Origin: Candidatus Saccharimonadota bacterium
GTDB taxonomy: Bacteria; Patescibacteriota; Saccharimonadia; Saccharimonadales; Saccharimonadaceae
Reading direction: 5' to 3'
Length of the DNA: 32,000 nucleotides
NCBI GenBank assembly: GCA_020160975.1
Contig: JAIUPJ010000001.1
Coordinates: 90,001 to 122,000 of the forward strand
Part shown: positions 1 to 29,984 of the stretch, in pieces
Position numbering within the stretch: the first letter of the stretch is position 1
How the letters are laid out: each line of letters begins with the position of its first letter
Position numbers and translations under genes: made by a program
The notes under the pieces: model-generated
Told to the model about the DNA's origin: nothing
Seen by the model: the letters and a program-made list of their open reading frames with translations, nothing else
The model's database searches: none

Positions 1-110
1 AGTCAAAGCGCCAATCCTTGGGCAAGGCAAGTAAAAAAATGGTCGAGCCATATTTAATGCCAAAAATCATGGACCAGATGATTGAAATATATAAGAAGGT
101 CTTAGCATGA
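1..110 (+). CDS. 3' end of an ORF entering from the left edge (tail resembles group-1 glycosyltransferase C-termini)
   Basis: Frame starting at nt 3 is open from the edge and reads SKRQSLGKASKKMVEPYLMPKIMDQMIEIYKKVLA, then TGA at 108-110. This overlaps the ATG at 107 (ATGA coupling). Family call is by resemblance only. Confidence 0.35.
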   Translation, partial: SKRQSLGKASKKMVEPYLMPKIMDQMIEIYKKVLA

Positions 111-1207
111 GTAACGAGCTGAGTCTGCTATTCTATGTTTCGACTTTCTTACTTTCGGTAGCTGCATTTTGGTATATAAATCAGTCTAAGAGCAGGCGAA
201 TATTTGTATTTTCTTCTATACTTCCTCTTGCACTAATGTCTGCTCTTAGATTTGAAGTAGGCACTGATTTTACTGCATACGCAGATGGATATAGAATCTT
301 GTCTAATCTTAGCCTGACAGAGTATATATCGACTTATAGTGATATATATGAAGTAGGTACTTATATCGTCGCACAAATTTCCAGCTTGTTGCCATTTTCT
401 ACTAACGTTTTTTTTGGTATATTTAGTTTTTTTACTCTTTTTGTAGCGGCTCTTGCATTAAAAAAATATAATGTTTTTTACCCGTGGTTGACTATGCTCC
501 TTTATGTTTTTATTATGTTCCCGACTTCTTTTAATGGGGTACGCCAGATGTTAGCTGTGTCGTTATTTGTCTATGCAACTACGTTTATTTTTAGCAAGCA
601 GTTATGGAGATTTGTCTTTTTAATTCTGATTGCTGGAGCTTTTCACAAGACTGCATTGTTGCTTATTCCAGTCTATGCAATAGGTAGGATTTTCTATAAA
701 CATAAAAAAATCAGTATTCGTAGTGTAGTCTCTATAGTTTTTATAGCATGTTCGGTAATCGTATTATCTATTTTTATAGTACCTAAACTTACTAGTGTAT
801 CGTTATTTGAGAAATATGATACTTATCAGGTTGCAAGAGAAGCTTCGAGTGGATTGATCTTACTCCTTAAGTCAGCCGTGTTGGCTGTGGTGTTGTTATT
901 CTATAGGTACATCTTCAAGTATCCCTATGCGGCCTTCTGTGTCGTTATGTCTATCATAGAAATAACTATATTGTATATCTATCGCAACTCTGTAGATTTA
1001 GCCAGGTTTGCTTTGTATTTCGCTCCTTTCTCGTTACTTCTCATATCTCTCGTACCTAGATCTTTTGGGCCTGGGGGCAGAGTTTTATCGTCCTTGCTAA
1101 TAGCGATATATGCTATGGTTCTGTTTTTCATATCGTTTTATGTACTTGGTGGTTCAGGGATATTTCCGTATCAATATGAACTAAGTGTTGCTGGAGTAAT
1201 AAAATGA
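107..1207 (+). CDS. EpsG-family polysaccharide polymerase-like integral membrane protein
   Basis: 366-aa ORF with many hydrophobic segments. N-terminal ALRFEVGTDFTAYADGY motif is typical of the EpsG family. ATGA overlaps with both neighbours. Confidence 0.75.
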   Translation: MSNELSLLFYVSTFLLSVAAFWYINQSKSRRIFVFSSILPLALMSALRFEVGTDFTAYADGYRILSNLSLTEYISTYSDIYEVGTYIVAQISSLLPFSTNVFFGIFSFFTLFVAALALKKYNVFYPWLTMLLYVFIMFPTSFNGVRQMLAVSLFVYATTFIFSKQLWRFVFLILIAGAFHKTALLLIPVYAIGRIFYKHKKISIRSVVSIVFIACSVIVLSIFIVPKLTSVSLFEKYDTYQVAREASSGLILLLKSAVLAVVLLFYRYIFKYPYAAFCVVMSIIEITILYIYRNSVDLARFALYFAPFSLLLISLVPRSFGPGGRVLSSLLIAIYAMVLFFISFYVLGGSGIFPYQYELSVAGVIK

Positions 1208-2031
1208 AAAAAAAATCACCCGAGGTCTCTGTCGTTATGTCTGAGTTTAATACACCAAAGGAGTACCTTTTTGAATCAATAAATAGTGTTTTGGTTCAAA
1301 CTTATAAAAACTTTGAGTTCATCATAATAGATGATAGCCATGACCAAAAATTAAAAGAATTGATTGAACAAAAATATGACGACTCACGAATAAAGATAAT
1401 AGAAAACGGTTACAATAAGGGTTTTGTGTACTCACTAAACAGCGGCATAAAACAGGCCATGGGTAAGTATATTATGCGAATGGATACTGATGACTTAATT
1501 CCGTCAGACAGATTTGAAAAACTTGTGAACTTCATAGAAGTAAACCCTCAATATTCAGTCGTTTCAAGTATGGCAGTTGAGTTTTCTGGAAAAATGAAGT
1601 TCGGTATCAACGGTACTCCTGGTGAGAAAAGCAGAAAAGATGTTATGAGGGGCGACACTCCAATTCACGCAGCCTCTATCATGCTTAAGAACGACCTGGA
1701 GGATATAGGTTTGTATAGAAATGATTTTCTTAGAGCCGAGGATCTGGCATTATGGTGCGAGTTACTGCTGGCAAATAAGAAACTTTTTGTAATTGATGAC
1801 ACTCTATATGAATACAGAGTTAATCCGGGTGACTATAAAAAACGAACCTTTAAAAACAGGAAAGGAGAAATCAGTGCCAGGCTCTATTTTTACCCCAAAC
1901 TAGGTGCTGGACCTATTGAATATTTGAGGATAATTAAAAGCATACTAGCTGGGTTGGCTCCAATGTTTCTTATTAGAATTTACAGAAGTAAAATTGCTTT
2001 AGCAAGAGTCAAAGGGCAAGATAATGGATAA
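1204..2031 (+). CDS. Family 2 glycosyltransferase
   Basis: VSVVMSEFNTPKEYLFESINSVLVQTYKNFEFIIIDD followed by MDTDD (DXD) is a GT2 N-terminal Rossmann-like signature. Start overlaps the upstream stop. Confidence 0.85.
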   Translation: MKKKSPEVSVVMSEFNTPKEYLFESINSVLVQTYKNFEFIIIDDSHDQKLKELIEQKYDDSRIKIIENGYNKGFVYSLNSGIKQAMGKYIMRMDTDDLIPSDRFEKLVNFIEVNPQYSVVSSMAVEFSGKMKFGINGTPGEKSRKDVMRGDTPIHAASIMLKNDLEDIGLYRNDFLRAEDLALWCELLLANKKLFVIDDTLYEYRVNPGDYKKRTFKNRKGEISARLYFYPKLGAGPIEYLRIIKSILAGLAPMFLIRIYRSKIALARVKGQDNG

Positions 2032-2995
2032 GTCTCAACTCGCATCTGTCGATATCGTAATCCCTGTATACAACGCTTCGCAAAGCATAAGGTATTGCAT
2101 CGATGCCGTGCTAACACAATCGCACAAGAATTTTCGAATGATCTTGATAGATGACGGTTCGACAGACGGATCCTTTGATATTTGTGAAGAATATGCAAAA
2201 AGATACCCAAATATCAAATTAGTACACCAAAATAACTCAGGGGTATCAGCCGCGAGGAACCAGGGACTAAACTTGGTTAAAGCTGATTTTTTTACTTTTA
2301 TAGATAGTGATGATCTGATATACAGTAGCTGTGTGTCAGATCTTGTAGATGCGGCACTTGAACATGATAGCGACTTAGTAACGGCTAATATCTTTAGGAC
2401 AAAGAATATCCATGATAGAGTGCCCGGCAATGATGTGAATCTGGCTTATGATATAGCTGCTAGCACGGCAATAGAAGAGCTGCTATACGGTCGGCGCATC
2501 AAGAATCATCCAGTAGCAAGGCTGTACAGATCTGATAAACTTTCGAGCGTAAGATTTGATGAGACTATATCTATAGGAGAAGACATGGACTACACTTTTC
2601 GATGTCTTCGCAAGGTTAATAAAGTAACGTTAGTCGATAAAGTCTTGTATAACTACATAAATAAGGAGGGTAGTGCCATGAATAGCAATTTTACGGCTAC
2701 GAGAGCAGACTCTTTTCGAGCAGCTCGAAAGATTTATGAAGCCACAGGGGGGGGAGATGCATCGATATCTAAGCTGTTTGACGAAGCATTTGCAATAGCT
2801 ACTTTAGCAAGGCCTCATCGCAATAGCTTCGAAAAAATATATATAGAATGTAGCCGAGTCAGCAAGAAATTGGCGTTTCAAGTGTTTTGCAATTCTAAGG
2901 TTAGATTACGCCAAAGGGTTTATGCATTTTTAGTAATTCTTAATGTAGACTTAGCTTTATTAATTGCAGGTGTGAAGCGAAGGTTTAGAGGTTAG
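2024..2995 (+). CDS. Family 2 glycosyltransferase
   Basis: VDIVIPVYNASQSIRYCIDAVLTQSHKNFRMILIDDGSTDGS and DSDD motifs. Overlaps the previous gene by 8 nt. Confidence 0.85.
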   Translation: MDKSQLASVDIVIPVYNASQSIRYCIDAVLTQSHKNFRMILIDDGSTDGSFDICEEYAKRYPNIKLVHQNNSGVSAARNQGLNLVKADFFTFIDSDDLIYSSCVSDLVDAALEHDSDLVTANIFRTKNIHDRVPGNDVNLAYDIAASTAIEELLYGRRIKNHPVARLYRSDKLSSVRFDETISIGEDMDYTFRCLRKVNKVTLVDKVLYNYINKEGSAMNSNFTATRADSFRAARKIYEATGGGDASISKLFDEAFAIATLARPHRNSFEKIYIECSRVSKKLAFQVFCNSKVRLRQRVYAFLVILNVDLALLIAGVKRRFRG

Positions 2996-3004
2996 GGTCG
3001 AATC

Positions 3005-4087
3005 ATGAAAAGGGCAATCCTACACTTTTATTCTGCAAATAATTTAGGTGATGATCTTTTTGTGGGGATTATCACTTGTAGGTATGATGCAATTTTTACA
3101 TTAATTACATACCAGCATAACGACTATTTTTCTAAAATATCTAATACAAGGTTAACATCGGGTAACTTTAACAAGTTCTTATCTAGAACGTTAAAATTTA
3201 TAACCGGCCGGAATAATCCTCTACTCAGATACCATGCAAAAACCAACGATTTGATGATATACGCAGGAGGATCAATATTTATAGAGGGAAATAATGCGGG
3301 ACACTGGGTGAAAGAAGCAGATTTTTACAATAGTCTAAGGATCCCTTACTATTTGCTTGGATCAAATATTGGCCCCTATGAGTCAGATAGTTTTTTGAGT
3401 ACGATAAAAATTATATTAAATGGAGCTGAAGATGTTTGTCTTCGTGATACTGCATCGTACGATTTGGTAAAAGATTTGCCAAATGCTCGAGTCGCTTCAG
3501 ATATAGCGTTTACGCTAGATACGAGCCCATATGATACGACAAGTGATAAATTAGCTGTATTCTCAGTTATTAACTGCGATGATCGATTTAGCCCGAAAAT
3601 CACGCAGAAGTATGAGCAAGAAATCGCGAAACTTTCGCGTAATCTAGCCGCCGCTGGATACAGAGTTGTACTTATGTCTTTCTGCAAGTACGAAGGTGAC
3701 GAAGATGCTATACGTCGGATAATCACTAACGGTGGCGAGGGTTTTAAAGAGATTGTTTCGACGCATTATTATAATGGCGATCTCGAGAAATCATTAGCAC
3801 TGTTGGCAAAGAGTGAGATTATCGTAGCGTCACGTTTTCATGGAGCAATCCTTGGCTTGTTGTTCGGTAAAAAGGTGCTACCAATGGCATATAGTTCTAA
3901 AACTACAAATATTCTAAAAGACATGAGTTTTCGAGGTCCAATTATAGATATAAATAACATATACGAGTTCGACGGCTCAAGTTTTAACTTTAGCACTCTC
4001 GAAGTAAATAATGTCAGTGACCAGGTAAAACTCGCGGAAAAACAATTCCAAGAACTAGACAAGGTCCTAGAGAAGCGTAAAAAGTAA
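3005..4087 (+). CDS. Polysaccharide pyruvyl transferase family protein
   Basis: N-terminal NNLGDDLF and C-terminal SRFHGAILGLLFGKKVLPMAYSSKT match the pyruvyl transferase (CsaB/WcaK-like) pattern as I recall it. Confidence 0.75.
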   Translation: MKRAILHFYSANNLGDDLFVGIITCRYDAIFTLITYQHNDYFSKISNTRLTSGNFNKFLSRTLKFITGRNNPLLRYHAKTNDLMIYAGGSIFIEGNNAGHWVKEADFYNSLRIPYYLLGSNIGPYESDSFLSTIKIILNGAEDVCLRDTASYDLVKDLPNARVASDIAFTLDTSPYDTTSDKLAVFSVINCDDRFSPKITQKYEQEIAKLSRNLAAAGYRVVLMSFCKYEGDEDAIRRIITNGGEGFKEIVSTHYYNGDLEKSLALLAKSEIIVASRFHGAILGLLFGKKVLPMAYSSKTTNILKDMSFRGPIIDINNIYEFDGSSFNFSTLEVNNVSDQVKLAEKQFQELDKVLEKRKK

Positions 4088-5541
4088 TGTCCAAGCAAAA
4101 AGACCTCATCAAAAACACCATCATCATAGCCTTTGGCAAATTATCAACGCAGTTTTTGACGTTTCTTTTGTTGCCTCTCTATACGTCGTATCTTACTACT
4201 AGTGAGTTCGGTACGGTTGACTTAGCTATGACTTATATCGGGCTGTTGGCGCCACTTATTATGGTCGCCCTAGAAATGGCAGCCTTCCGCTTCCTCATAG
4301 ATGCCAGGGACATTGAAAAAGAGAAGATACGGGTGATAACCAACGTTTTGCAGATGGTCGGGCTGTTTGCGGTTATAGCCTTGCTTTTGTTCGCGGTCGT
4401 TAGTAGATTTGTAGCAGTGCCTTTTGGCTGGTTGATGCCGGGTGTTGTGCTGGCAATTATCGCATCAAACATGCTCCTTCAATTTGCACGTGGTTTTGGT
4501 GACAACGTGAAGTACTCCATAGGAGGGGTAGTGGCAGGTGTCACAACTATTGCTGCAAATATTTTATTCATCGTCTACATGGGCATGGGGGCGGAGGGTA
4601 TGTTGTTTGGCGTGCTGATAGGCAACTTGGCGGTTGCTGCGTATTTATTTGTCGTGTTGAAGGTTCACCGGTTCATAATACTATCAGCAAGCGATAAGTC
4701 TTTGAAGTTAAAGTTACTGCGCTACTCAGCACCACTAGTGCCAAACGGTATGTCGTGGTGGGCTATCAACGCCGCCGATCGTACTGTAGTGGCTATAGTG
4801 CTAGGCGTAGCGTCGAACGGTATTTATGCGGTTGCCTATAAATTTCCAATGATTTTTAACGGTTTGTTTTCGTTCTTTGGTATGTCTTGGACAGAGTCAG
4901 CATCTATGAATATCGAGAAACGCGATCGTGATGAGTTCTTTTCACAAACAATGAATGCAAGTATCCGACTTTTCGGCTCACTCGGGCTATGTATTATCGC
5001 TGGCGTATCATTGGTATTCACACTACTTGTGAGCCAAACCTATCACGAAGCATATATGTACATTCCCCTCCTCATAGTCGGTTCATTTTTTAATTCCATC
5101 GTGAGCCTATACGGCGCAATTTATATTGCTAAAAAAATGACAAAGCAGGTTATGAACAGTTCTATCATTGCCGCTTTCATTAGCATTTTGCTTACCGTTT
5201 GTCTTATCTCGCAAATTGGGCTATTCGCACCTGCGCTTGCAATGGTAGCCGCATATGGTTCGATGGCCGTCTACCGTCACCATGATGTTAAAAAATTTGT
5301 GAACATTACTTACGATTACAAATCATTCACGATACTAGCACTAGCGTTCGTAGCTGTGGCAACTTTGTACTACATAAATAGCCCACTATTAAATATATTG
5401 AATGTACTTGTAGCGCTAGGGATCTCTGTTATCCTCAACCGCTCGATCATCAGCATAATCAAAACAAAACTTTTCGCCCGGCTACGACCACTCACGCCCG
5501 AGCAACAGATACTCGAAGATATCGAGGAAAAGAAGCTGTAG
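4087..5541 (+). CDS. wzx: Wzx-type oligosaccharide flippase (MOP superfamily)
   Basis: 484-aa polytopic membrane protein. N-terminal KNTIIIAFGKLSTQFLTFLLLPLYTSYLTTSEFG is typical of polysaccharide biosynthesis flippases. ATG shares 1 nt with the upstream TAA. Confidence 0.8.
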   Translation: MSKQKDLIKNTIIIAFGKLSTQFLTFLLLPLYTSYLTTSEFGTVDLAMTYIGLLAPLIMVALEMAAFRFLIDARDIEKEKIRVITNVLQMVGLFAVIALLLFAVVSRFVAVPFGWLMPGVVLAIIASNMLLQFARGFGDNVKYSIGGVVAGVTTIAANILFIVYMGMGAEGMLFGVLIGNLAVAAYLFVVLKVHRFIILSASDKSLKLKLLRYSAPLVPNGMSWWAINAADRTVVAIVLGVASNGIYAVAYKFPMIFNGLFSFFGMSWTESASMNIEKRDRDEFFSQTMNASIRLFGSLGLCIIAGVSLVFTLLVSQTYHEAYMYIPLLIVGSFFNSIVSLYGAIYIAKKMTKQVMNSSIIAAFISILLTVCLISQIGLFAPALAMVAAYGSMAVYRHHDVKKFVNITYDYKSFTILALAFVAVATLYYINSPLLNILNVLVALGISVILNRSIISIIKTKLFARLRPLTPEQQILEDIEEKKL

Positions 5542-5542
5542 T

Positions 5543-5989
5543 ATGATGAATCGAAGACTCGTTATAAAATATATTTCAGTAGCTATATGGATGCTTGTTA
5601 TATTCCTTATGTCCAACGAAATAGCCGTAACGTCTTCAGCACGCAGCGACGAAATCGTTCGCACTATACAATCTATTGGGGTTAGCGCCCCAGCCGACCT
5701 GCTAACCTTTATAGTACGGAAGGCTGCTCATATTAGCGCTTACTTTGTACTCGGAATTCTGCTTTTTAACTTAATCAAAGAATATGATCTAGGTGTAAAG
5801 AAAATGATATTCATAAGCACTGCCATAGCTATGCTGTATGCCTGTACAGACGAGGTACACCAAATGTTCGTACCTGGCCGTAGCGGTGAAGTACGCGACG
5901 TCCTAATAGACACCGCCGGAGCGGCCGTAGGTGTTGTAGCGTACGCTGCGCTGCACTCCAGATTTTACAAAAAGTCCGAAATAGTATAG
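5543..5989 (+). CDS. VanZ family membrane protein
   Basis: 148 aa, 4 hydrophobic segments. RKAAHISAYFVLGILL and DEVHQMFVPGRSGEVRDVLIDTAGAAVG are the VanZ-like signature. Confidence 0.75.
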   Translation: MMNRRLVIKYISVAIWMLVIFLMSNEIAVTSSARSDEIVRTIQSIGVSAPADLLTFIVRKAAHISAYFVLGILLFNLIKEYDLGVKKMIFISTAIAMLYACTDEVHQMFVPGRSGEVRDVLIDTAGAAVGVVAYAALHSRFYKKSEIV

Positions 5990-6009
5990 AATAGATAAAC
6001 AATATTGTT

Positions 6010-11299: not shown

Positions 11300-11365
11300 C
11301 TATCAACCTATTTCCATTTACGCAGCTCATGGTTATAATGAGCCGTAGTGAAAAGGGGAGGGCAA

Positions 11366-12967
11366 ATGATCGTCAACGTCAATCAACGCACTGCGAGCAT
11401 TATTCATGTTGCCGGTTTTTTAATACCCGTGATTTTGACGTTGTACGGATTCCTTATATTACTCAAAATCGTCCAGCCGTCCCAGCAGGTTGACCCGTGG
11501 ATATTCGGCATTATCACGGGGGGATGGATTGTGCTCGGTACGTATCAGTTACTCGTTGCCTCACGCAGTAAAACCGAATCTGCACTCCGGCTAGCTGGAT
11601 ATCATCTGTTTACAATAGCTTATATCTTGCTTATTGCTGGCTTCTCGATGCCGTTTATTTGCATTTGGGCAGTGCTTTTCTTGGCATCTTACGAATTCTT
11701 TTCTAATGATGGACTCCGCCTAAGTATCGTAGCACTGGTCGTAACAGCGGTTGCCGATACCATCATCAACCTCGGCGATGACCGTTATGTGATCACAAAT
11801 ATTATCTCGCTGGTTGCAACACTCTTGGTGGGTATGATCGCCACACAAGTAAGCCAAGCTCAACAAGTTGATCGCCAAGAACTTAGCCAGGCGCGAACCG
11901 ACGGCCTACGTGAGCGTGATCGCGCCGTTACGCTCATGAATAATCTGACCGATGCTGTACTCGCCACCGACAAAAATGGCATCATCCTCGTCTACAATGC
12001 CGCCTGCCTCAATCTCCTCGACACCAACGCCGAGCTCACCAATCAGCCGATCGATGCCGTGGTGTCTGTCCAAGATAGCGATGGCAAGCCACTCAAGCTA
12101 AGCAAATCCCTCCGTGATGCAAAGAGTGTGGTTAGTCGAGATGATCTCAGCGCCGTGATTTCCGATGAAACCATTCGACTCAGTACGGTCTTTTCGCCAA
12201 TTCGTAGCACCAACAGTAATAGCAAGTCTGCCGAGGGCTATATCGTGATTCTGCGCGACATCACCAAACAAAAATCGCTCGAAGAAGAGCGCGATGAGTT
12301 CATCAGTGTAGTTAGCCACGAACTTCGTACTCCGATCACCATCGCTGAGGGCACGCTTAGCAACGTGCAGCTCATGATGAGCCGGCGTGACATTCCTCAC
12401 ACCACACTGGCCAACAACGTCACTGTAGCACACGAGCAGGTTGTATTCTTGGCAAAGATGGTCAACGACCTCAGCACTCTTAGCCGTGCCGAGCGCGGCG
12501 TAGCCGATACGCCCGAAGAAATTGATGTCAGCCAGATGGTACACGACCTCTATAGCGAATACGCCCCTCAAGCCGAAGCCAAAGGCCTTCAGTTCAACCT
12601 AGCGCTTGACCCCCAGCCTGGCACTGTCTTCGCTAGCCCGCTCTACCTCAAAGAGTTACTGCAAAACTTTGTGACAAACGCTATCAAGTACACCAAGAAA
12701 GGCGACATTCTGCTACGGGTGACAAAGCAAGATGATACACTCGAATTTTCGGTCAAAGACAGTGGTATTGGCATCAGTAAGTCCGACCAAGAGCGTATTT
12801 TCGATAAATTCTGGCGAAGCGAGGACTACCGGACGCGCGAGACGGGGGGTACAGGCTTGGGACTTTATGTGGCACGCAAGCTTTCTCGCAAGCTCAACAC
12901 CGAGATTCACCTTAGCTCGCGGCTCAATCATGGCTCAACATTCCGCTTTAGCTTGCCACTAAAATGA
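11366..12967 (+). CDS. Membrane-bound PAS sensor histidine kinase
   Basis: About 5 N-terminal TM segments, a PAS-like region, H-box SHELRTPIT, N-box and GGTGLGLYVARKL ATP lid. Start set at ATG 11366, 5 nt after AAGGGGAGG, rather than the GTG at 11348. Confidence 0.85.
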   Translation: MIVNVNQRTASIIHVAGFLIPVILTLYGFLILLKIVQPSQQVDPWIFGIITGGWIVLGTYQLLVASRSKTESALRLAGYHLFTIAYILLIAGFSMPFICIWAVLFLASYEFFSNDGLRLSIVALVVTAVADTIINLGDDRYVITNIISLVATLLVGMIATQVSQAQQVDRQELSQARTDGLRERDRAVTLMNNLTDAVLATDKNGIILVYNAACLNLLDTNAELTNQPIDAVVSVQDSDGKPLKLSKSLRDAKSVVSRDDLSAVISDETIRLSTVFSPIRSTNSNSKSAEGYIVILRDITKQKSLEEERDEFISVVSHELRTPITIAEGTLSNVQLMMSRRDIPHTTLANNVTVAHEQVVFLAKMVNDLSTLSRAERGVADTPEEIDVSQMVHDLYSEYAPQAEAKGLQFNLALDPQPGTVFASPLYLKELLQNFVTNAIKYTKKGDILLRVTKQDDTLEFSVKDSGIGISKSDQERIFDKFWRSEDYRTRETGGTGLGLYVARKLSRKLNTEIHLSSRLNHGSTFRFSLPLK

Positions 12968-12976
12968 CCTACGTTT

Positions 12977-13070
12977 CGGAACCTTTCCGACGTACCGTAC
13001 AGCGACTGCAGCACTGATGCCCCTAAGAGACATCAAGCGCGTAGAATGATACGGAGTGGGAGATTTTGAG
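12977..13070 (+). repeat. Copy 1 of a ~100-nt structured repeat (core CCGTACAGCGACTGCAGC at 12995-13012)
   Basis: About three quarters identical by my hand alignment to the reverse complement of 29316-29413. Shares the core and outer arms with 29192-29300. Confidence 0.8.
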
Positions 13071-13087
13071 ATGTAGGCCAACTTTCA

Positions 13088-13116
13088 TTGCTCTTAATCA
13101 TATTGTATGGTATAGT
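13088..13116 (+). promoter_or_regulatory. Sigma-70-type promoter
   Basis: TTGCTC (13088-13093) N17 TATAGT (13111-13116) with a TGg extended -10. Confidence 0.5.
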
Positions 13117-13188
13117 CGTATTTTGTCAGCACATCACGTCAACACATGGACACCATTACTCATACTCAACCTAGAGGGGGTGAAAAAC

Positions 13189-13302
13189 ATGTCGAAGTTC
13201 GTCAAGCTCGCGGTGGGCGCGCTGGCCCTGCTGAGCCTCGCTGCCGTCGGTGGCATCATCCACGAGCTCATGCGCGATGACGGATCGGGCCTGCCATACT
13301 GA
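13189..13302 (+). CDS. 37-aa hydrophobic peptide (single TM), unknown function
   Basis: ATG 8 nt after GAGGGGG. Sequence MSKFVKLAVGALALLSLAAVGGIIHELMRDDGSGLPY. 32 of 37 codons end in G/C (my count), a strong frame-specific bias. Confidence 0.45.
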   Translation: MSKFVKLAVGALALLSLAAVGGIIHELMRDDGSGLPY

Positions 13303-13316
13303 TTGCGGGCCCTCAA

Positions 13317-13351
13317 GTCACCCCGGGCGGCACATTGCCGCCTGGGGTGAC
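13317..13351 (+). terminator. GC-rich hairpin without T-tract (I-shaped terminator candidate)
   Basis: 15-bp stem GTCACCCCGGGCGGC / GCCGCCTGGGGTGAC (one G-U), loop ACATT, 15 nt after the stop at 13302. Confidence 0.45.
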
Positions 13352-13359
13352 CCATCAAC

Positions 13360-13388
13360 TTGACTTTACTGCTCAGCTGATCTACACT
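13360..13388 (+). promoter_or_regulatory. Sigma-70-type promoter upstream of secE
   Basis: TTGACT (13360-13365) N17 TACACT (13383-13388). Confidence 0.5.
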
Positions 13389-13439
13389 GAGACTTGACAA
13401 TCTGCGACAAGCAGATTTTTAAATTGGAGAAAAAGGGAA

Positions 13440-13799
13440 GTGGCAAAAGCAACCAAGAAATCTGAGACAAAGGTGACCCGCATCACGGCAAGCGAAAGCG
13501 CGTCGAAAAAATCCGTCACCCTCAAGAAAAAACCAACAATCAGGCCAGCAAAAACCACTGAGGGACAACAGGCAGTATCAGGCCGCCCAGCACGTGTTCT
13601 TTCCAAGAACCCCCTGGTATCACTCTGGCGCTACATCAAAGGATCATGGCATGAGCTACGCCAAGTACGTTGGCCCGATCGACGCGCCACCTGGAAAATG
13701 ACTGGAGCGCTTATCGCATTCACTGTGTTTTTTGTGGTAGTAATTCTGCTGATTGATGCAGGATTTGGTGAATTATTTAAATTATTGATAGGAAAGTAG
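13440..13799 (+). CDS. secE: Preprotein translocase subunit SecE (with Lys-rich N-terminal extension)
   Basis: C-terminal ELRQVRWPDRRATWKMTGALIAFTVFFVVVILLIDAGF is the SecE signature. Sits directly upstream of nusG. GTG start after GGAGAAAAAGGGAA. Confidence 0.85.
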   Translation: MAKATKKSETKVTRITASESASKKSVTLKKKPTIRPAKTTEGQQAVSGRPARVLSKNPLVSLWRYIKGSWHELRQVRWPDRRATWKMTGALIAFTVFFVVVILLIDAGFGELFKLLIGK

Positions 13800-25703: not shown

Positions 25704-25983
25704 TACTCCCATCTGTTGACGAGACACTCCTGTTGTGATACATTTGTATGTAGACATTGCCAAAGACAGTAGCGGGTGAATAATCGCCGATAAGAAGCTA
25801 CCGAGGGAATTACATTCTTTCAGAAGTCTTTGCGCGTAGGTGCAGAGATTTTTTATTTCGCAGTGGTCTACCTTAACAATGTGGTCGAACAGAATTACAC
25901 CTTTTAACAAAGCTAACCTAGAAAGTTGTCATGATGACGAAAGTCATCGTGGCGGGTTTCGGCAAAAAGGAGAAGATTATCCC

Positions 25984-27242: not shown

Positions 27243-27755
27243 GTGGCTCGCACCACCAACACCCGTCGCCCCCAGAGGCCCAAGGCTGACAAGTTCGGTC
27301 TGGTGTTCGACAGCAATGTCGGCAAGCAGTACCGCAAGATAAAGCGTGACGACAACAACTCGGCACGTCCGCAGCGCAGCCCTCACTACATGGAGTACTT
27401 CGTACTTCGCGGTCGGCGCATTCGCGATGATGCGGCCACCTGGGGATGTCACGAGCTCCTCGACGAAGTCGAGAGCTGCAGTGTCCAGCCGAGCACCCTA
27501 CGCGTGCCTCGGCGGTACTCGACCAAGACCCCCGCCAAGGTGGTCAACGCGCCGGTGCCGCTCAATCGGAGCTTCGAACTGCCAGTCAAGACTCGGTTCT
27601 CCGAGTTGCGACGCAGTCGGCTCAGCGATGCCGAGCTAGCCAAGCTGCTGCCGTCACACATCCGTGTGCGCCCGCAGCCGGCCAGGGTCACCTTGGAGCT
27701 CCCGAAGCACCTGCGGTGCCCGGAGGACGAGGAGCAGCGTTCGCCCTGCGCCTAG
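27243..27755 (+). CDS. Arg/Pro-rich basic hypothetical protein (170 aa), high-GC codon usage
   Basis: GTG 6 nt after AGGAGAA. 33 of the first 40 codons end in G/C (my count), so this frame rather than the overlapping ORFs is coding. No domain recognised. Confidence 0.55.
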   Translation: MARTTNTRRPQRPKADKFGLVFDSNVGKQYRKIKRDDNNSARPQRSPHYMEYFVLRGRRIRDDAATWGCHELLDEVESCSVQPSTLRVPRRYSTKTPAKVVNAPVPLNRSFELPVKTRFSELRRSRLSDAELAKLLPSHIRVRPQPARVTLELPKHLRCPEDEEQRSPCA

Positions 27756-27765
27756 GGCGAAACTT

Positions 27766-27813
27766 GCGGCCCGTTTCTTGCACTCAGTGCAGGAAGCGGG
27801 CCGCTTTCTATTT
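27766..27813 (+). terminator. Long GC-rich hairpin terminator
   Basis: 18-bp stem 27766-27783 / 27787-27804 (two G-U), loop TCA, followed by TTTCTATTT. Confidence 0.7.
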
Positions 27814-27873
27814 GTGTATATTTTTACAACGATTTTCTCTTCACCTCATATCTCACTGTGGAGAAAAAAGCCC

Positions 27874-27904
27874 TTGACTTTCACGCCCCCGAGCGGTATA
27901 TAAT
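27874..27904 (+). promoter_or_regulatory. Promoter candidate
   Basis: TTGACT (27874-27879), then TATATAAT at 27897-27904 (17- or 19-nt spacing). Confidence 0.4.
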
Positions 27905-27945
27905 GAGGGTATTACCAAACACAGACAAAGATTGCGAGAACTAAT

Positions 27946-28461
27946 ATGTCTGAATTACCAGAAAAACAAGTCAAGCGACTCAAATCGCTGATTCAAGAGG
28001 CGGAGACCAACCTAGCCGCTGCCAAAGAACTACTGATGAGCATCATGGGCGACGATGGCCATGCTATCACCCCAACCAATAGCCGCGAAGAAGTCAGCGG
28101 CAAGGTGATCGAAGGTGTCTTCGATGGCCAAGTCATGATTGGCCCCGACGGCAAGAGCTATCCAGTGCCTGCCAACTATGCGAGCAAGAGCAAGCTAGTC
28201 GAAGGCGACATTTTGAAACTCACCATCGCCGATGACGGCGGCTTTATCTACAAGCAGATTGGCCCAGTCCCACGCAAACAGATTATCGGTACTCTGGTGC
28301 AACACGACGGTGCCTACTATGTAGAGGCCAGCGGGCGCGAATACAGGATTCTCCTCGCCAGTGTGACCTATTTCCGTATCAATATCGGTGACCAAGTCAC
28401 TATCATCGTGCCAGAGGACAATCCTGAGGCAGTGTGGGCAGCAGTAGAGGCGGCGCTGTAG
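27946..28461 (+). CDS. Hypothetical protein (171 aa): N-terminal helix plus two small beta-rich modules
   Basis: Clean ORF with average composition. GPDGKSYPVPANYASKSKLVEGDILKL and NIGDQVTIIVPED look like repeated small barrel modules. No family name that I can support. Confidence 0.6.
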   Translation: MSELPEKQVKRLKSLIQEAETNLAAAKELLMSIMGDDGHAITPTNSREEVSGKVIEGVFDGQVMIGPDGKSYPVPANYASKSKLVEGDILKLTIADDGGFIYKQIGPVPRKQIIGTLVQHDGAYYVEASGREYRILLASVTYFRINIGDQVTIIVPEDNPEAVWAAVEAAL

Positions 28462-28552
28462 TAGCAAGCCAATGAGGGAGCCAAGATAGCTTCCCTCATC
28501 GCGCCGAGAATAACATTCCGTTATTCTCGAGCTACTCTTTCCTAACGGTTAT

Positions 28553-28589
28553 AAAAACGATGCAGAAGTAAATTCTGACATCGTTTTTT
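28553..28589 (+). terminator. Rho-independent terminator
   Basis: ACGATGCAGAA / TTCTG-a-CATCGT stem followed by TTTTTT. Preceded by two further hairpins, 28472-28499 and 28505-28529. Confidence 0.75.
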
Positions 28590-28641
28590 CTACCCTGAGA
28601 CGAAAATAACGGGATGCTTTCGAAACGGAGGGCATGAAGAT

Positions 28642-28670
28642 TTGACACTGGTTTTTCCGTAGTTCATAAT
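28642..28670 (+). promoter_or_regulatory. Promoter of leaderless orphan gene
   Basis: TTGACA (28642-28647) N17 CATAAT (28665-28670). ATG 28678 is 7 nt downstream. Confidence 0.6.
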
Positions 28671-28677
28671 TAATCAC

Positions 28678-29166
28678 ATGAAAGCTCATGACAACGTCGT
28701 TGATTTGTCGAGTGAGCCGCTGGGGAGTCGCTATATTTGGCCTGCGCCCGATATCCTGCGTACCAGCGAATCTTCAGACCCTACTGAGCTTGCCGTCTCG
28801 GGACAGCGCGAACTCAAGCTGGGGCAGGCACTGTGCCGGCTTGGGTCGCCGAGCATTATGATCTTTAACGCCCTGCAAACACTCACCGAGCAGCAGGGGC
28901 GCGAAGCATCGTTTGCATGGGAAGATATCGAACGCGAGTTACGGAATGAAAGGTATGGGTTCAACCAGTATCATCGATTTTATAATGTCGCGGCGATACG
29001 ACTCTCACAATATCTCGGCTATCTTGCTCAAGTATCTGGTAATCCCTTCGATGCCGTTGTCCGTTCAGAGCCTCGAAATGCTGAGCAAACGCACAGCACC
29101 GGTAACCCGTATCTGTACAGCTTTAATCCTTCTCTCCAAATCAAAGACGAACGCCCGCAATTGTAA
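28678..29166 (+). CDS. Hypothetical protein (162 aa)
   Basis: ORF with its own promoter. No domain recognised. Confidence 0.55.
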   Translation: MKAHDNVVDLSSEPLGSRYIWPAPDILRTSESSDPTELAVSGQRELKLGQALCRLGSPSIMIFNALQTLTEQQGREASFAWEDIERELRNERYGFNQYHRFYNVAAIRLSQYLGYLAQVSGNPFDAVVRSEPRNAEQTHSTGNPYLYSFNPSLQIKDERPQL

Positions 29167-29191
29167 CGTCTGTCCGCCGCTGGAGTGTGCG

Positions 29192-29300
29192 CCTATATCT
29201 TAAAACCTCCTCTCTTCACGCCGTACAGCGACTGCAACCCGAGACACAAAGTGGCTCGGCGTGAAAGGGAGTGTGAAGAGAGGAGGTTTTTAGATATAGG
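29192..29300 (+). repeat. Copy 2 of the structured repeat (long hairpin, core CCGTACAGCGACTGCAAC at 29221-29238)
   Basis: 28-nt arms 29192-29219 / 29273-29300 pair with one mismatch. Inner hairpin CCGAG-a-CAC / GTG-g-CTCGG. Confidence 0.8.
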
Positions 29301-29315
29301 ATGTAGAGCCTGAGT

Positions 29316-29413
29316 CTCAAAACCTCCCACTCCACACCCCCCTACGCGCCTGATATCTCTTACAGAGACACCAGGGCTGCAGTCGCTTTACGGTGTGTCG
29401 GAGAGGTTTTGAG
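29316..29413 (-). repeat. Copy 3 of the structured repeat, inverted orientation
   Basis: The plus strand carries GCTGCAGTCGCTTTACGG (29376-29393), the reverse complement of the core. Closest relative of copy 1. Confidence 0.8.
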
Positions 29414-29430
29414 GTCTAGAGCGTAAAACC

Positions 29431-29459
29431 TTGACATTACGATAATTTTTTGCTATAAT
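29431..29459 (+). promoter_or_regulatory. Consensus promoter
   Basis: TTGACA (29431-29436) N17 TATAAT (29454-29459) with TGc. Confidence 0.65.
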
Positions 29460-29528
29460 AAATATTGAATTATCCACCACTCAGCTGTGCGGATAGTCCG
29501 CACCTATCAAGTAGAGAAGAGACCCCCG

Positions 29529-29984
29529 ATGGGAAACACCAGTGTTATCGAGTCACTCGAGGGCATCATGGACTACGTCCTTCGTCTCGAGCGGCAGATC
29601 GGTAACCTCGAGGCCATGCTCCGCATAGCGGAGGCGCGCACGGCGCAGCCGCACGCTTGCTACCGCGAGGGTTACGTCGATGCGTCGCGTCAGTTCGAAC
29701 AGATCGCCGGCCGCATCGGCAAGGCCTGGGGAGCTCGTGTCGACCCCGGCAAGAGTGCCTCGAAAAAGCCGAGCTCCGAGCTGCTCGCAAAGAGCATCGA
29801 CACGCTCGGTCTGCCGACGCGCATCACCAACCCGATGCACGTGAACAACATCCACACGATCGGCGACCTCATCAAGTGCGATGAGATTGACCTGATCACG
29901 ATGCGCAACTTCGGTGAAGAGGCGCTCAAGAAGGTGGAGTCCGAACTTAGCAAGCTCGGGCTGTCCCTTCGCCGGAACGACTGA
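29529..29984 (+). CDS. Stand-alone protein with RNA polymerase alpha-subunit C-terminal-domain-like (HhH) module
   Basis: LLAKSIDTLGLPTRITNPMHVNNIHTIGDLIKCDEIDLITMRNFGEEALKKVESELSKLGLSL aligns by eye with E. coli RpoA CTD ([62 protein letters not shown]). 32 of the first 40 codons end in G/C. Start is uncertain: ATG 29529 preferred over GTG 29487, which lies inside a perfect hairpin. Confidence 0.65.
   Translation: MGNTSVIESLEGIMDYVLRLERQIGNLEAMLRIAEARTAQPHACYREGYVDASRQFEQIAGRIGKAWGARVDPGKSASKKPSSELLAKSIDTLGLPTRITNPMHVNNIHTIGDLIKCDEIDLITMRNFGEEALKKVESELSKLGLSLRRND

What the first reader, a model, noticed from the sequence alone, without database searches (positions are those of the whole stretch)
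12977..13070. Third copy of the element in the histidine kinase 3' region, with compensatory double substitutions
Copy 1 starts 10 nt after the kinase stop. By my hand alignment it is about three quarters identical to the reverse complement of copy 3. In the helix flanking the conserved core, copy 1 has CGTA (12991-12994) pairing with TACG (13050-13053). Copy 3 (minus sense) has CACA pairing with TGTG at the aligned positions. Two adjacent base pairs are therefore changed on both sides (G-C to A-T and T-A to C-G). Copy 2 has yet another paired sequence there (TTCAC/GTGAA). In copies 1 and 3 a GA/GA juxtaposition lies next to this helix, which is possible for a kink-turn or loop-E-like motif but is speculative. 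Copies 1 and 2 both sit just downstream of a plus-strand gene that has no other terminator, and both end in a T-run. One plausible role is therefore an elaborate terminator or 3'-UTR element with a protein- or RNA-binding loop.
Basis: partly seen in the sequence, partly recalled or inferred. Interest (0 to 1): 0.65.

Follow-up and report, generated by a model that had tools for sequence, protein, structure and literature searches.

The report
Hairpin repeat family in Saccharibacteria
The flagged sequence is a real, roughly 110-base hairpin-forming repeat that sits between genes in one Saccharibacteria lineage, most likely a small selfish or mobile repeat that can also act as a transcription stop signal, so it is a new example of a familiar kind of element rather than a new kind of RNA.

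Summary
Window 12968-13078 (+) is one of three copies of a ~110-nt element. The others are 29192-29300 (+) and 29308-29420 (-). Copy 1 is 80% identical to the reverse complement of copy 3. The CGTA/TACG versus CACA/TGTG double substitution is real.

In an alignment of 11 distinct sequences, 93% of cells pair and 23 of 37 pairs change on both sides. No Rfam family matches.

The context does not fit a dedicated regulatory RNA:
- Copies lie in either orientation relative to their genes and next to unrelated genes.
- Close relatives lack them at the same sites.
- A second Saccharibacteria genome (L122) carries two copies inside a clean ~465-nt insertion placed after an existing terminator.
- Some strains lack copies 2 and 3.
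- The solo copy 1 has decayed to 76% identity in a strain whose flanks are 98% identical.

Two subtypes occur as inverted doublets that fold into one super-hairpin.

Best reading: a new family of interspersed palindromic repeats, like REPIN, SPRITE, RUP or ERIC. It folds on one particular strand and carries an invariant U-tract, so it plausibly terminates transcription when transcribed. The kink-turn idea is not supported. Only five independent copies were available, and the mobilising mechanism is unknown.

The parts
12968..13078 (+). Copy 1 (type A, solo). It starts immediately after the histidine-kinase stop codon.
   Evidence: Covariance model R1 scores it at 109 bits. RNA fold -41.5 kcal/mol, z = -4.6. 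Segment map.
12968..12988 (+). Copy 1, 5' arm of outer helix P1. It includes GGAACC in place of the AAAACC seen in other copies.
12991..12996 (+). Copy 1, helix P2 5' strand (CGTACC). This is the helix named in the finding.
   Evidence: All 6 pairs of P2 change on both sides somewhere in the family.
12995..13014 (+). Conserved asymmetric 5' core CCGTACAGCGACTGCAGCAC. It spans the end of P2, the GTAMA loop, the P3 5' strand and a 7-nt bulge.
13015..13035 (+). Copy 1, apical hairpin P4. Its sequence and length vary between copies.
   Evidence: 7 of 7 pairs change on both sides.
13036..13047 (+). Conserved 3' core (AGCGC GTAGAAT): P3 3' strand plus purine-rich loop.
13048..13053 (+). Copy 1, helix P2 3' strand (GATACG).
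13056..13077 (+). Copy 1, 3' arm of P1, holding the invariant T-run at 13065-13068.
29192..29300 (+). Copy 2 (type B). It begins 25 nt after the stop of an ORFan 162-aa gene and is the left half of the inverted doublet.
   Evidence: R1 90 bits. Fold -61.4 kcal/mol, z = -9.2.
29308..29420 (-). Copy 3 (type A). It is the right half of the doublet and is antisense to all neighbouring genes.
   Evidence: R1 100 bits. Fold -57 kcal/mol on the sense strand against -41.4 on the antisense strand.
29185..29425 (.). Doublet of copies 2 and 3. As one strand it folds into a single ~230-nt super-hairpin.
   Evidence: -123.3 kcal/mol, z = -10.6. The two cores are 88% complementary over 24 nt (pair I2).
11348..12967 (+). 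Histidine kinase gene (PAS, HisKA, HATPase_c) directly upstream of copy 1.
29431..29459 (+). Consensus sigma-70-type promoter (TTGACA-17-TATAAT, with TG) 11 nt after copy 3. It is context, not part of the repeat.
29176..29954 (.). A 779-nt segment (copies 2 and 3, the promoter and most of the RpoA-CTD-like ORF) that is absent in strains L167 and L168.

Best explanation
The sequence is one member of a small, previously undescribed family of ~110-nt interspersed imperfect palindromes in a Candidatus Saccharimonas-like lineage (Saccharibacteria/TM7).

Anatomy. Each unit folds, on one particular strand, into a long hairpin:
- a variable outer stem P1 that contains an A-run paired to an invariant U-run;
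- a variable 6-bp stem P2;
- an invariant asymmetric core (5' CCGUAMAGCGACUGCARC, 3' RGCGYG-purines, joined by a 5-bp invariant helix P3);
- a variable apical hairpin P4.

Two subtypes, A and B, exist. They tend to lie side by side in inverted orientation, which gives a larger palindrome.

Inferred mechanism. The family spreads or is reshuffled as a selfish, non-autonomous element through a single-stranded intermediate. The invariant core would be the site recognised by whatever enzyme mobilises it, and the stems only need to pair. Once in an intergenic region and transcribed, the stem plus U-tract behaves as an intrinsic terminator or RNA-stabilising hairpin, potentially in both directions.

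Shown: the repeat family, the fold, the covariation, the strand asymmetry, the presence/absence polymorphism and the decay of the solo copy.
Inferred: mobility, the type of intermediate, the role of the core and terminator activity.
For: Family and structure:
- There are three copies in the window and two more, plus a partial arm, in an unrelated Saccharibacteria contig, L122.
- 93.4% of cells pair and 23 of 37 pairs change on both sides. 0 of 500 shuffles reach this, and slid controls give 26-55% pairing.
- An independent MAFFT/RNAalifold run gave 21 of 37 compensated pairs.
- As a negative control, 760 kb of unrelated DNA that all contains the 16-nt core gave only one 19-bit partial hit. True copies score 88-116 bits.

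One-strand folding:
- The sense strand folds 4-16 kcal/mol better than the antisense strand in all five independent copies, whichever genomic strand they lie on.
- G.U outnumbers A.C by 23 to 8.
- Copy 1's outer stem forms with RNA parameters but not with DNA parameters.

Repeat or mobile behaviour:
- Sister species lack the element between the kinase gene and secE; the gaps there are 79-95 nt.
- L154, the closest relative of L122 (86% aa identity in the flanking S41 peptidase), has terminator then promoter with a 64-nt gap. L122 has a clean 461-467-nt insertion at exactly that junction, and it holds the copies.
- The neighbouring genes are unrelated: kinase/secE, ORFan/RpoA-CTD-like, and CHAP/S41 peptidase.
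- Orientation relative to genes is mixed.
- Short contigs L148 and L149 carry this locus and are only 985 and 952 nt long.

Dispensability and decay:
- Strains L167 and L168 lack copies 2 and 3.
- The solo copy 1 is 76-95% identical between strains whose flanks are 98% identical, and the otherwise invariant core is mutated in L127.
- The doublet is 98-100% identical in the same strains. This matches the pattern reported for REPINs, where singlets decay and doublets are conserved (PMC3116915).

Terminator-like features:
- The UUUU directly after the stem base is invariant in all 11 sequences, even where its partner is GGAA rather than AAAA.
- Copies 1 and 2 follow genes that have no other predicted terminator, whereas other genes in the window have canonical ones.
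Against: - Only five independent copies at three loci were found. About 48 kb of this genome holds three copies, so high copy number is not shown.
- No transposase, no conserved terminal inverted repeat sequence and no convincing target-site duplication were seen. The only candidate is a weak ATTTTT/ATTCTT at the L122 insertion.
- The L167/L168 allele looks like a deletion by illegitimate recombination, not an excision.
- The invariant core with freely covarying stems, and the G.U-dependent outer stem of copy 1, are also what a functional RNA would show.
- The U-tract is short (4-5 U) and the hairpin is far longer than canonical terminators. No expression or 3'-end data exist.
Confidence: 0.55

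Rival explanations
1. It is a dedicated structured RNA: a 3'-UTR element or small RNA whose conserved asymmetric core is a binding site for a protein or another RNA. The stems are kept only to present that core. On this view the repeat-like distribution reflects a regulon, not mobility.
For: - The 18-nt core is invariant while all the surrounding stems covary.
- The sense strand always folds better, and G.U pairs are tolerated but A.C pairs are rare.
- Copy 1's outer stem needs RNA-type wobble pairs.
- Copies 1 and 2 lie directly after stop codons.
Against: - Two of five copies are antisense to every nearby gene, and no promoter was detected on their own strand.
- In a doublet, the transcript folds into a super-hairpin in which the cores are base-paired to each other.
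- The neighbouring genes share no function.
- Sister species lack it at the same sites, and strains tolerate its loss and the decay of the core.
- In L122 the copies lie behind an intact terminator.
- No Rfam family matches.
Confidence: 0.2
2. The units are structured recombination sites or the ends of a larger mobile module, comparable to integron attC sites or to the subterminal hairpins of IS200/IS605-type elements. On this view the neighbouring lineage-specific DNA (small ORF, ORFan genes, RpoA-CTD-like ORF) is the cargo.
For: - All three loci are hypervariable insertions that also carry strain-specific ORFs.
- The structure is conserved while the arm sequence is not.
- Folding is specific to one strand.
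- A and B units occur in inverted pairs, and in L122 they are interleaved with other inverted repeats.
Against: - The arms contain no attC R''/R' core sites (RYYYAAC / GTTRRRY), judged by inspecting the sequences.
- No integrase or Y1/HUH transposase appears in the gene tables for the ~50 kb around the copies.
- The left flanks share no target motif.
- The boundaries of the 779-nt indel do not coincide with the ends of the units.
Confidence: 0.12
3. It is a neutral palindromic remnant with no function at any level. The apparent compensatory changes would come from DNA-level processes such as template switching or hairpin-templated repair between the arms, and from gene conversion between copies.
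For: - Copy 1 in L127 is a mosaic that resembles copy 3 in its inner part. Many of the differences are G>A or C>T transitions.
- Arm homogenisation in quasi-palindromes is an established mutational process (my own knowledge).
Against: - An 18-nt non-palindromic core is invariant between two genomes whose stems have diverged almost completely.
- The sense/antisense asymmetry is consistent across copies.
- The U-run is invariant.
Confidence: 0.08

Closest known systems
REPINs / REP-BIME elements (REP doublets mobilised by RAYT transposases; Bertels & Rainey 2011, PMC3116915)
   Same: - A ~100-nt extragenic hairpin.
- Units paired in inverted orientation.
- Compensatory changes in the stem.
- Solo units decay faster than doublets.
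- Single-strand folding, and no obvious target-site duplication.
   Different: - In REPINs the conserved parts are the two short terminal REP palindromes and the spacer is free. Here the arms vary and a non-palindromic central core is conserved.
- Each unit here is already a ~110-nt hairpin.
- No RAYT gene was seen, and copy number appears low.
Pneumococcal SPRITE and RUP repeats (Croucher et al. 2011, PMC3049150)
   Same: - Small interspersed repeats close to the 3' ends of coding sequences.
- A stem-loop followed by a U-rich tract, so they resemble terminators.
- SPRITE has only AAAA/TTTT as terminal inverted repeats and no demonstrable target duplication.
- The elements cluster and insert next to or into one another, and they are restricted to particular lineages.
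   Different: - A different phylum and no sequence similarity.
- The element here has a much longer hairpin, a short U-tract buried inside the outer stem and a conserved asymmetric core.
- Its GC content (~50-55%) is not lower than that of the genome.
ERIC (enterobacteria) and Correia (Neisseria) elements
   Same: Imperfect palindromes of about 100-150 nt in transcribed intergenic regions. They occur in either orientation, are present or absent at orthologous sites, and fold as RNA hairpins that can affect termination or mRNA stability (my own knowledge).
   Different: - Correia elements have conserved terminal inverted repeats and a TA target duplication. Neither is seen here.
- There is no sequence similarity.
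Canonical intrinsic (Rho-independent) terminators
   Same: A GC-containing stem base immediately followed by UUUU(U), with an A-run on the other side (the bidirectional layout), placed after stop codons.
   Different: - The hairpin is ~100 nt with internal loops, whereas the canonical terminators in this window have 7-18 bp stems.
- The stem continues about 10 bp beyond the U-run.
- Some copies are antisense, or lie behind another terminator.
Integron attC sites
   Same: Imperfect palindromes of 57-141 nt that are recognised as a folded single strand. Structure is conserved more than sequence, and they lie at the 3' ends of ORFs (my own knowledge).
   Different: - No R''/R' core sites.
- An invariant 18-nt internal core, which attC sites lack.
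- No integrase and no cassette array nearby.

Membership tests
MITE (classical, DDE-transposase-derived) | Terminal inverted repeats whose sequence is conserved between copies | tested here: not met
   The arms pair but differ in sequence between copies (CCTACGTTTCGG / CCTATATCTTAA / CCTGAGCCTTAA / CCTAAACACCAA / GGGTTTTGAATCC). Only the A-run/T-run and CCT...AGG recur.
MITE (classical, DDE-transposase-derived) | Target-site duplication flanking the element | tested here: not met
   The flanks of the five units share no direct repeat (sequences). The only candidate is a weak 6-nt ATTTTT/ATTCTT at the ends of the whole 461-nt L122 insertion.
MITE (classical, DDE-transposase-derived) | Small size, several copies and presence/absence at orthologous sites | tested here: met
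   The units are ~110 nt. There are five independent copies in two genomes. Sister taxa have empty sites.
MITE (classical, DDE-transposase-derived) | A parent insertion sequence with matching ends in the genome | not testable with these tools
   Only about 50 kb of the genome could be fetched. The IS30-family element in L132 has unrelated ends.
REPIN / REP | Two short REP sequences in inverted orientation that form one hairpin, with the spacer free to vary and showing compensatory changes | tested here: inconclusive
   The hairpin, the compensatory changes and the inverted doublets are present. However, the conserved part is a central asymmetric core, not terminal REP 16-mers.
REPIN / REP | A cognate RAYT (Y1/HUH transposase) gene in the same genome, flanked by REPs | not testable with these tools
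   No Y1_Tnp-type gene appears in the gene tables of the fetched loci. The rest of the genome could not be reached.
REPIN / REP | High copy number (tens to hundreds per genome) | tested here: inconclusive
   Three copies in about 48 kb of contiguous sequence. The genome-wide count is unknown.
Intrinsic terminator | A stable stem directly followed by a U-tract, downstream of and co-oriented with a gene | tested here: inconclusive
   The stem base plus an invariant UUUU(U) is present in every copy. Copies 1 and 2 are co-oriented with the upstream gene and lie 0 and 25 nt after its stop. Copy 3 and L122-B are antisense. The simple terminator scan did not call the elements, because their loops exceed its limits.
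Intrinsic terminator | Transcript 3' ends mapped at the U-tract | not testable with these tools
   No transcript data are available.
Kink-turn | C-stem, 3-nt bulge, then tandem sheared G.A/A.G leading into the NC-stem, in that strand order | tested here: not met
   In type A the 3' strand reads P2-GA-GUG-P1, so GA comes before the extra bases rather than after a 3-nt bulge. The loop next to P3 has CA/AA where GA is required. Type B has a continuous helix at this position (by inspection).
Any Rfam 15 family | A covariance-model match at or near the gathering score | tested here: not met
   There is no hit at E <= 10 for 12800-13300. For copies 2 and 3 and for L122 the only hits are sub-threshold matches to microRNA-precursor (generic hairpin) models, at most 27 bits against cut-offs of 60-330.
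Integron attC | R'' (RYYYAAC) and R' (GTTRRRY) core sites at the base of the stem, and an integron integrase nearby | tested here: not met
   The window copies do not contain these motifs. L122-B has GTTAGGC by chance but no matching R''. No integrase appears in the gene tables.

The most novel reading that the evidence does not exclude
The invariant asymmetric core, presented on covarying stems and folded on one strand only, could be the recognition module of a mobility or RNA-binding system not yet described in ultra-small CPR (Candidate Phyla Radiation) bacteria. One possibility is a hairpin repeat copied through a single-stranded DNA or RNA intermediate by an unrecognised enzyme. Another is a mobile, self-spreading class of intrinsic terminator that the host co-opts.
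Probability: 0.15. Interest if true: 0.6.

Novelty: new member of a known kind. Interest (0 to 1): 0.3.

Why it matters
Saccharibacteria have genomes of about 1 Mb with very little repetitive DNA, and my limited literature searches found no interspersed repeat family described for them. Such a family would be useful in three ways:
- as a marker of genome plasticity and of strain differences;
- as a source of assembly breaks in metagenome-assembled genomes;
- possibly as a source of terminators and insulators in these compact genomes.

It is also a cautionary case for scans that look for structured RNAs. Strong compensatory covariation and a conserved core can come from a selfish hairpin repeat, so gene context, orientation and presence/absence data are needed before calling something a regulatory RNA.

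Tried and rejected
1. A genome-contig scan with the bare 16-nt core was too unspecific. It returned 120 loci that were essentially all chance matches. The three Saccharibacteria hits lie antisense inside an LCP-family gene, where the sequence encodes ...KLQSLYG....
2. A metagenome scan with a flanked pattern returned four loci, of which only L122 was real.
3. Viral contigs, the phage collection and the plasmid collection held no copies.
4. Rfam gave no match at permissive thresholds.
5. The covariance model was run over about 0.5 Mb of Saccharibacteria loci from other species and over the flanks of the window. It found no further copies.
6. I tested whether L167/L168 give an empty insertion site for the doublet. 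I rejected this: the last 30 nt of the RpoA-CTD-like ORF remain and the junction has 1 nt of microhomology, so it looks like a deletion.
7. Kink-turn, loop-E, hammerhead, twister and group II intron domain V resemblances were considered by eye and dropped. They are not conserved between copies and Rfam gives no hit.
8. A DNA-uptake-sequence role for the core was rejected, because the core occurs only inside the elements.
9. A phage origin for the neighbouring ORFans was not supported by PHROGs.
10. Long inverted repeats in other species turned out to be unrelated, for example a stem flanking a tRNA gene in L150.
11. Two look-ups were wasted on ORFs whose start codon was called wrongly.

Full report
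**What is at the coordinates**

The window comes from a Candidatus Saccharimonas-like bacterium (Saccharibacteria/TM7). Its NusG is 90-97% identical to proteins that their sources name as Saccharibacteria or Saccharimonas. Identical genes lie on a 325.7-kb metagenome contig.

The histidine kinase gene (PAS/HisKA/HATPase_c) ends with TGA at 12965-12967. Immediately after it, 12968-13078 folds into a long imperfect hairpin of -41.5 kcal/mol, z = -4.6 against dinucleotide shuffles.

Two further copies lie at 29192-29300 (+) and 29308-29420 (-). Copy 1 is 78-80% identical over 94 nt to the reverse complement of the third copy, with E = 1.4e-17. The 16-nt core CCGTAMAGCGACTGCA occurs three times, against 0.29 expected by chance.

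**The family and its structure**

One metagenome contig from a different Saccharibacteria organism, L122 (PDWI01019480.1), carries two more full copies and a partial arm. Its S41 peptidase is 86% identical to a protein annotated as Candidatus Saccharibacteria.

There are two subtypes:
- Type A: copies 1 and 3 and L122-B, with ...GCAGCCC[hairpin]GGCGCGTAGGGGGG.
- Type B: copy 2 and L122-A, with ...GCAACCC[hairpin]GGCGTGAAAGG.

RNAalifold on a plain MAFFT alignment of 7 sequences predicted 37 pairs, 21 of them with compensatory changes. A covariance model built from that alignment scores true copies at 88-116 bits. In 760 kb of unrelated DNA chosen because it contains the same 16-nt core, the model found only one 19-bit partial hit.

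I then counted pairs on 12 aligned matches, 11 of them distinct:
- 93.4% of cells form standard pairs, against 80.8% in shuffles (0 of 500 shuffles reach the observed value).
- Sliding the 3' partners by 1-3 columns drops pairing to 26-55%.
- 23 of 37 pairs change on both sides.
- Helix P2, the helix named in the finding, covaries at 6 of 6 pairs, and the apical helix P4 at 7 of 7.
- The 5-bp helix P3 inside the core never varies, so it is neither supported nor contradicted.

The covariation claim therefore survives a proper alignment. There are two caveats. The alignment is fitted to the model, and there are only about five independent lineages.

No Rfam 15 family matches. The GA/GA juxtaposition exists in type A, but the strand order is wrong for a kink-turn and type B has a plain helix at that position.

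**Which strand folds**

The strand carrying CCGTAMAGCGACTGCA folds better than its complement in all five independent copies, by 4-16 kcal/mol overall:

| Copy | Core (sense) strand, kcal/mol | Complement, kcal/mol |
|---|---|---|
| Copy 1 | -41.5 | -34.3 |
| Copy 2 | -61.4 | -57.0 |
| Copy 3 | -57.0 | -41.4 |
| L122-B | -58.0 | -50.8 |
| L122-A | -62.3 | -50.4 |

This holds although the copies lie on different genomic strands.

G.U pairs outnumber A.C mismatches by 23 to 8. With DNA parameters, copy 1's outer stem no longer forms.

The constraint is therefore on a single strand of defined polarity. That could be RNA or single-stranded DNA, but not a double-stranded terminal inverted repeat.

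**Context: the element behaves like an interspersed repeat**

1. Orientation is mixed. Copies 1 and 2 and L122-A are sense to the flanking genes. Copy 3 and L122-B are antisense. The scan found no promoter on copy 3's own strand.

2. The neighbouring genes are unrelated: kinase/secE-nusG, an ORFan 162-aa gene next to an RpoA-CTD-like ORF, and a CHAP-domain gene next to S41 peptidase.

3. Four other Saccharibacteria species with the same gene order have either only 79-95 nt between the kinase gene and secE, or a different insert. None has an element.

4. L154 is the closest relative of L122. It has the CHAP gene, a canonical terminator, the promoter -10 box and the S41 gene, with a 64-nt gap. 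L122 has a clean 461-467-nt insertion exactly between the terminator's T-run and the -10 box. The insertion holds both copies, a spare type-B arm and interleaved inverted repeats. The copies there lie behind an intact terminator, so they are not needed for termination.

5. Strains L167 and L168 lack window 29176-29954, which covers both copies, the promoter and most of the RpoA-CTD-like ORF. Because the ORF's last 30 nt remain, I read this as a deletion. It shows that the segment is dispensable; it is not an empty insertion site.

6. The solo copy and the doublet evolve at very different rates.
   - Between strains whose flanking genes are 98% identical, the solo copy 1 is 95.5%, 90.7% and 75.9% identical.
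   - The 137 nt upstream of secE are 100% identical.
   - In the most divergent strain (L127) the otherwise invariant core is mutated and 6 of 37 pairs are lost, although one apical pair changed compensatorily from UGAUG/CAUCA to UGGUG/CACCA.
   - In that same strain the doublet of copies 2 and 3 is 98% identical.
   - Faster decay of singlets than of doublets, and frequent compensatory changes, are exactly what was reported for REPINs (PMC3116915).

7. On a single strand, copies 2 and 3 fold into one 230-nt super-hairpin of -123 kcal/mol. The two separate folds sum to about -103 kcal/mol. In the super-hairpin the two cores pair with each other. This is hard to reconcile with a core that must be presented in a loop.

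**Terminator-like properties**

In every copy the base of the stem is followed directly by UUUU(U). This run is invariant in all 11 sequences, even where its partner is GGAA rather than AAAA.

In copy 1, which is co-oriented with the kinase gene, the U-run is intact on the sense strand only. The antisense strand would read GGUUCCG.

Copies 1 and 2 follow genes that have no other predicted terminator, whereas other genes in the window have canonical ones. The pneumococcal SPRITE repeat is a published precedent: a terminator-like interspersed repeat with AAAA/TTTT ends that is enriched near the 3' ends of genes (PMC3049150; review PMC10969869).

Termination is therefore a plausible effect of the element when it is transcribed, but nothing here measures it.

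**Conclusion**

Its emphasis on a dedicated 3'-UTR or protein-binding RNA is not what the context supports.

The best-supported reading is a new family of interspersed hairpin repeats, analogous to REPIN, SPRITE, RUP or ERIC, in a phylum where I found none described. The literature searches found nothing, but those searches were limited. The one unusual feature is an invariant non-palindromic core with freely covarying arms.

The mobilising mechanism, the genome-wide copy number and the actual effect on transcription remain unknown. All three could be settled by the steps listed under next steps.

Noticed in passing
window 13360-13439 (hairpin 13399-13417 plus T-run, just upstream of the secE start at 13440): A promoter-like site is followed by a short hairpin and a T-run in the leader of secE-nusG. 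The same hairpin, with compensatory changes (GTCTGC/GCAGAC versus GTCTGG/CCAGGC), is present in four other Saccharibacteria species. Window 13303-13439 is 100% identical among strains whose surrounding intergenic DNA varies. This is a candidate attenuator or leader for the secE-nusG operon.
   Followed up: partly
window 29487-29984: A small accessory ORF with an RNA polymerase alpha C-terminal domain (PF03118) lies next to the repeat doublet. It is full length in some strains, lacks about 210 nt at its 5' end in L158/L159, and is deleted in L167/L168 except for its last 30 nt.
   Followed up: partly
L132 1-1068 (equivalent to window 13131/13132): In one strain an IS30-family insertion sequence (HTH_38 plus rve transposase) is inserted 53 nt downstream of where copy 1 ends. 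The contig starts inside the IS, so the other side is not visible. The region between the kinase gene and secE is an insertion hot spot.
   Followed up: partly
window 13189-13302 and 13328-13360: A 37-aa hydrophobic ORF (MSKFVKLAVGALALLSLAAVGG...) is followed by a GC-rich perfect hairpin with no T-run. It lies inside the same lineage-specific insert as copy 1. Gene calls differ among strains (37, 38, 49 or 55 aa), and the DNA is only 87-95% identical there.
   Followed up: no
window 27243-29166: A block of three genes has no Pfam or PHROGs match. The 162-aa protein has a single homologue cluster in 5.8 billion proteins. This is a lineage-specific island between rplL and dnaX that ends at the repeat doublet.
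   Followed up: partly
window 1-6000: GC content is 36-43% here, against 50-54% in the rest of the window. The block encodes polysaccharide biosynthesis genes (EpsG, glycosyltransferases, pyruvyl transferase, flippase), which suggests a horizontally acquired surface-polysaccharide cluster.
   Followed up: no
window 25742-25864: The ribosomal protein L10 leader (RF00557) matches above its gathering score (50.3 bits), upstream of rplJ. This is an ordinary feature.
   Followed up: no
L150 13979-14085: A tRNA gene is flanked by a 22-nt, 95% complementary inverted repeat, which may be a precursor processing stem. It is unrelated to the repeat family.
   Followed up: no
L122 3158-3172 / 3514-3528 and 3204-3238 / 3540-3574: Within the L122 insertion there is a perfect 15-nt inverted repeat. 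There is also a spare type-B arm that complements the distal arm of L122-A better (94%) than that copy's own partner arm does (79%). The two pairs are interleaved, which suggests past inversion or nested insertion among copies.
   Followed up: partly
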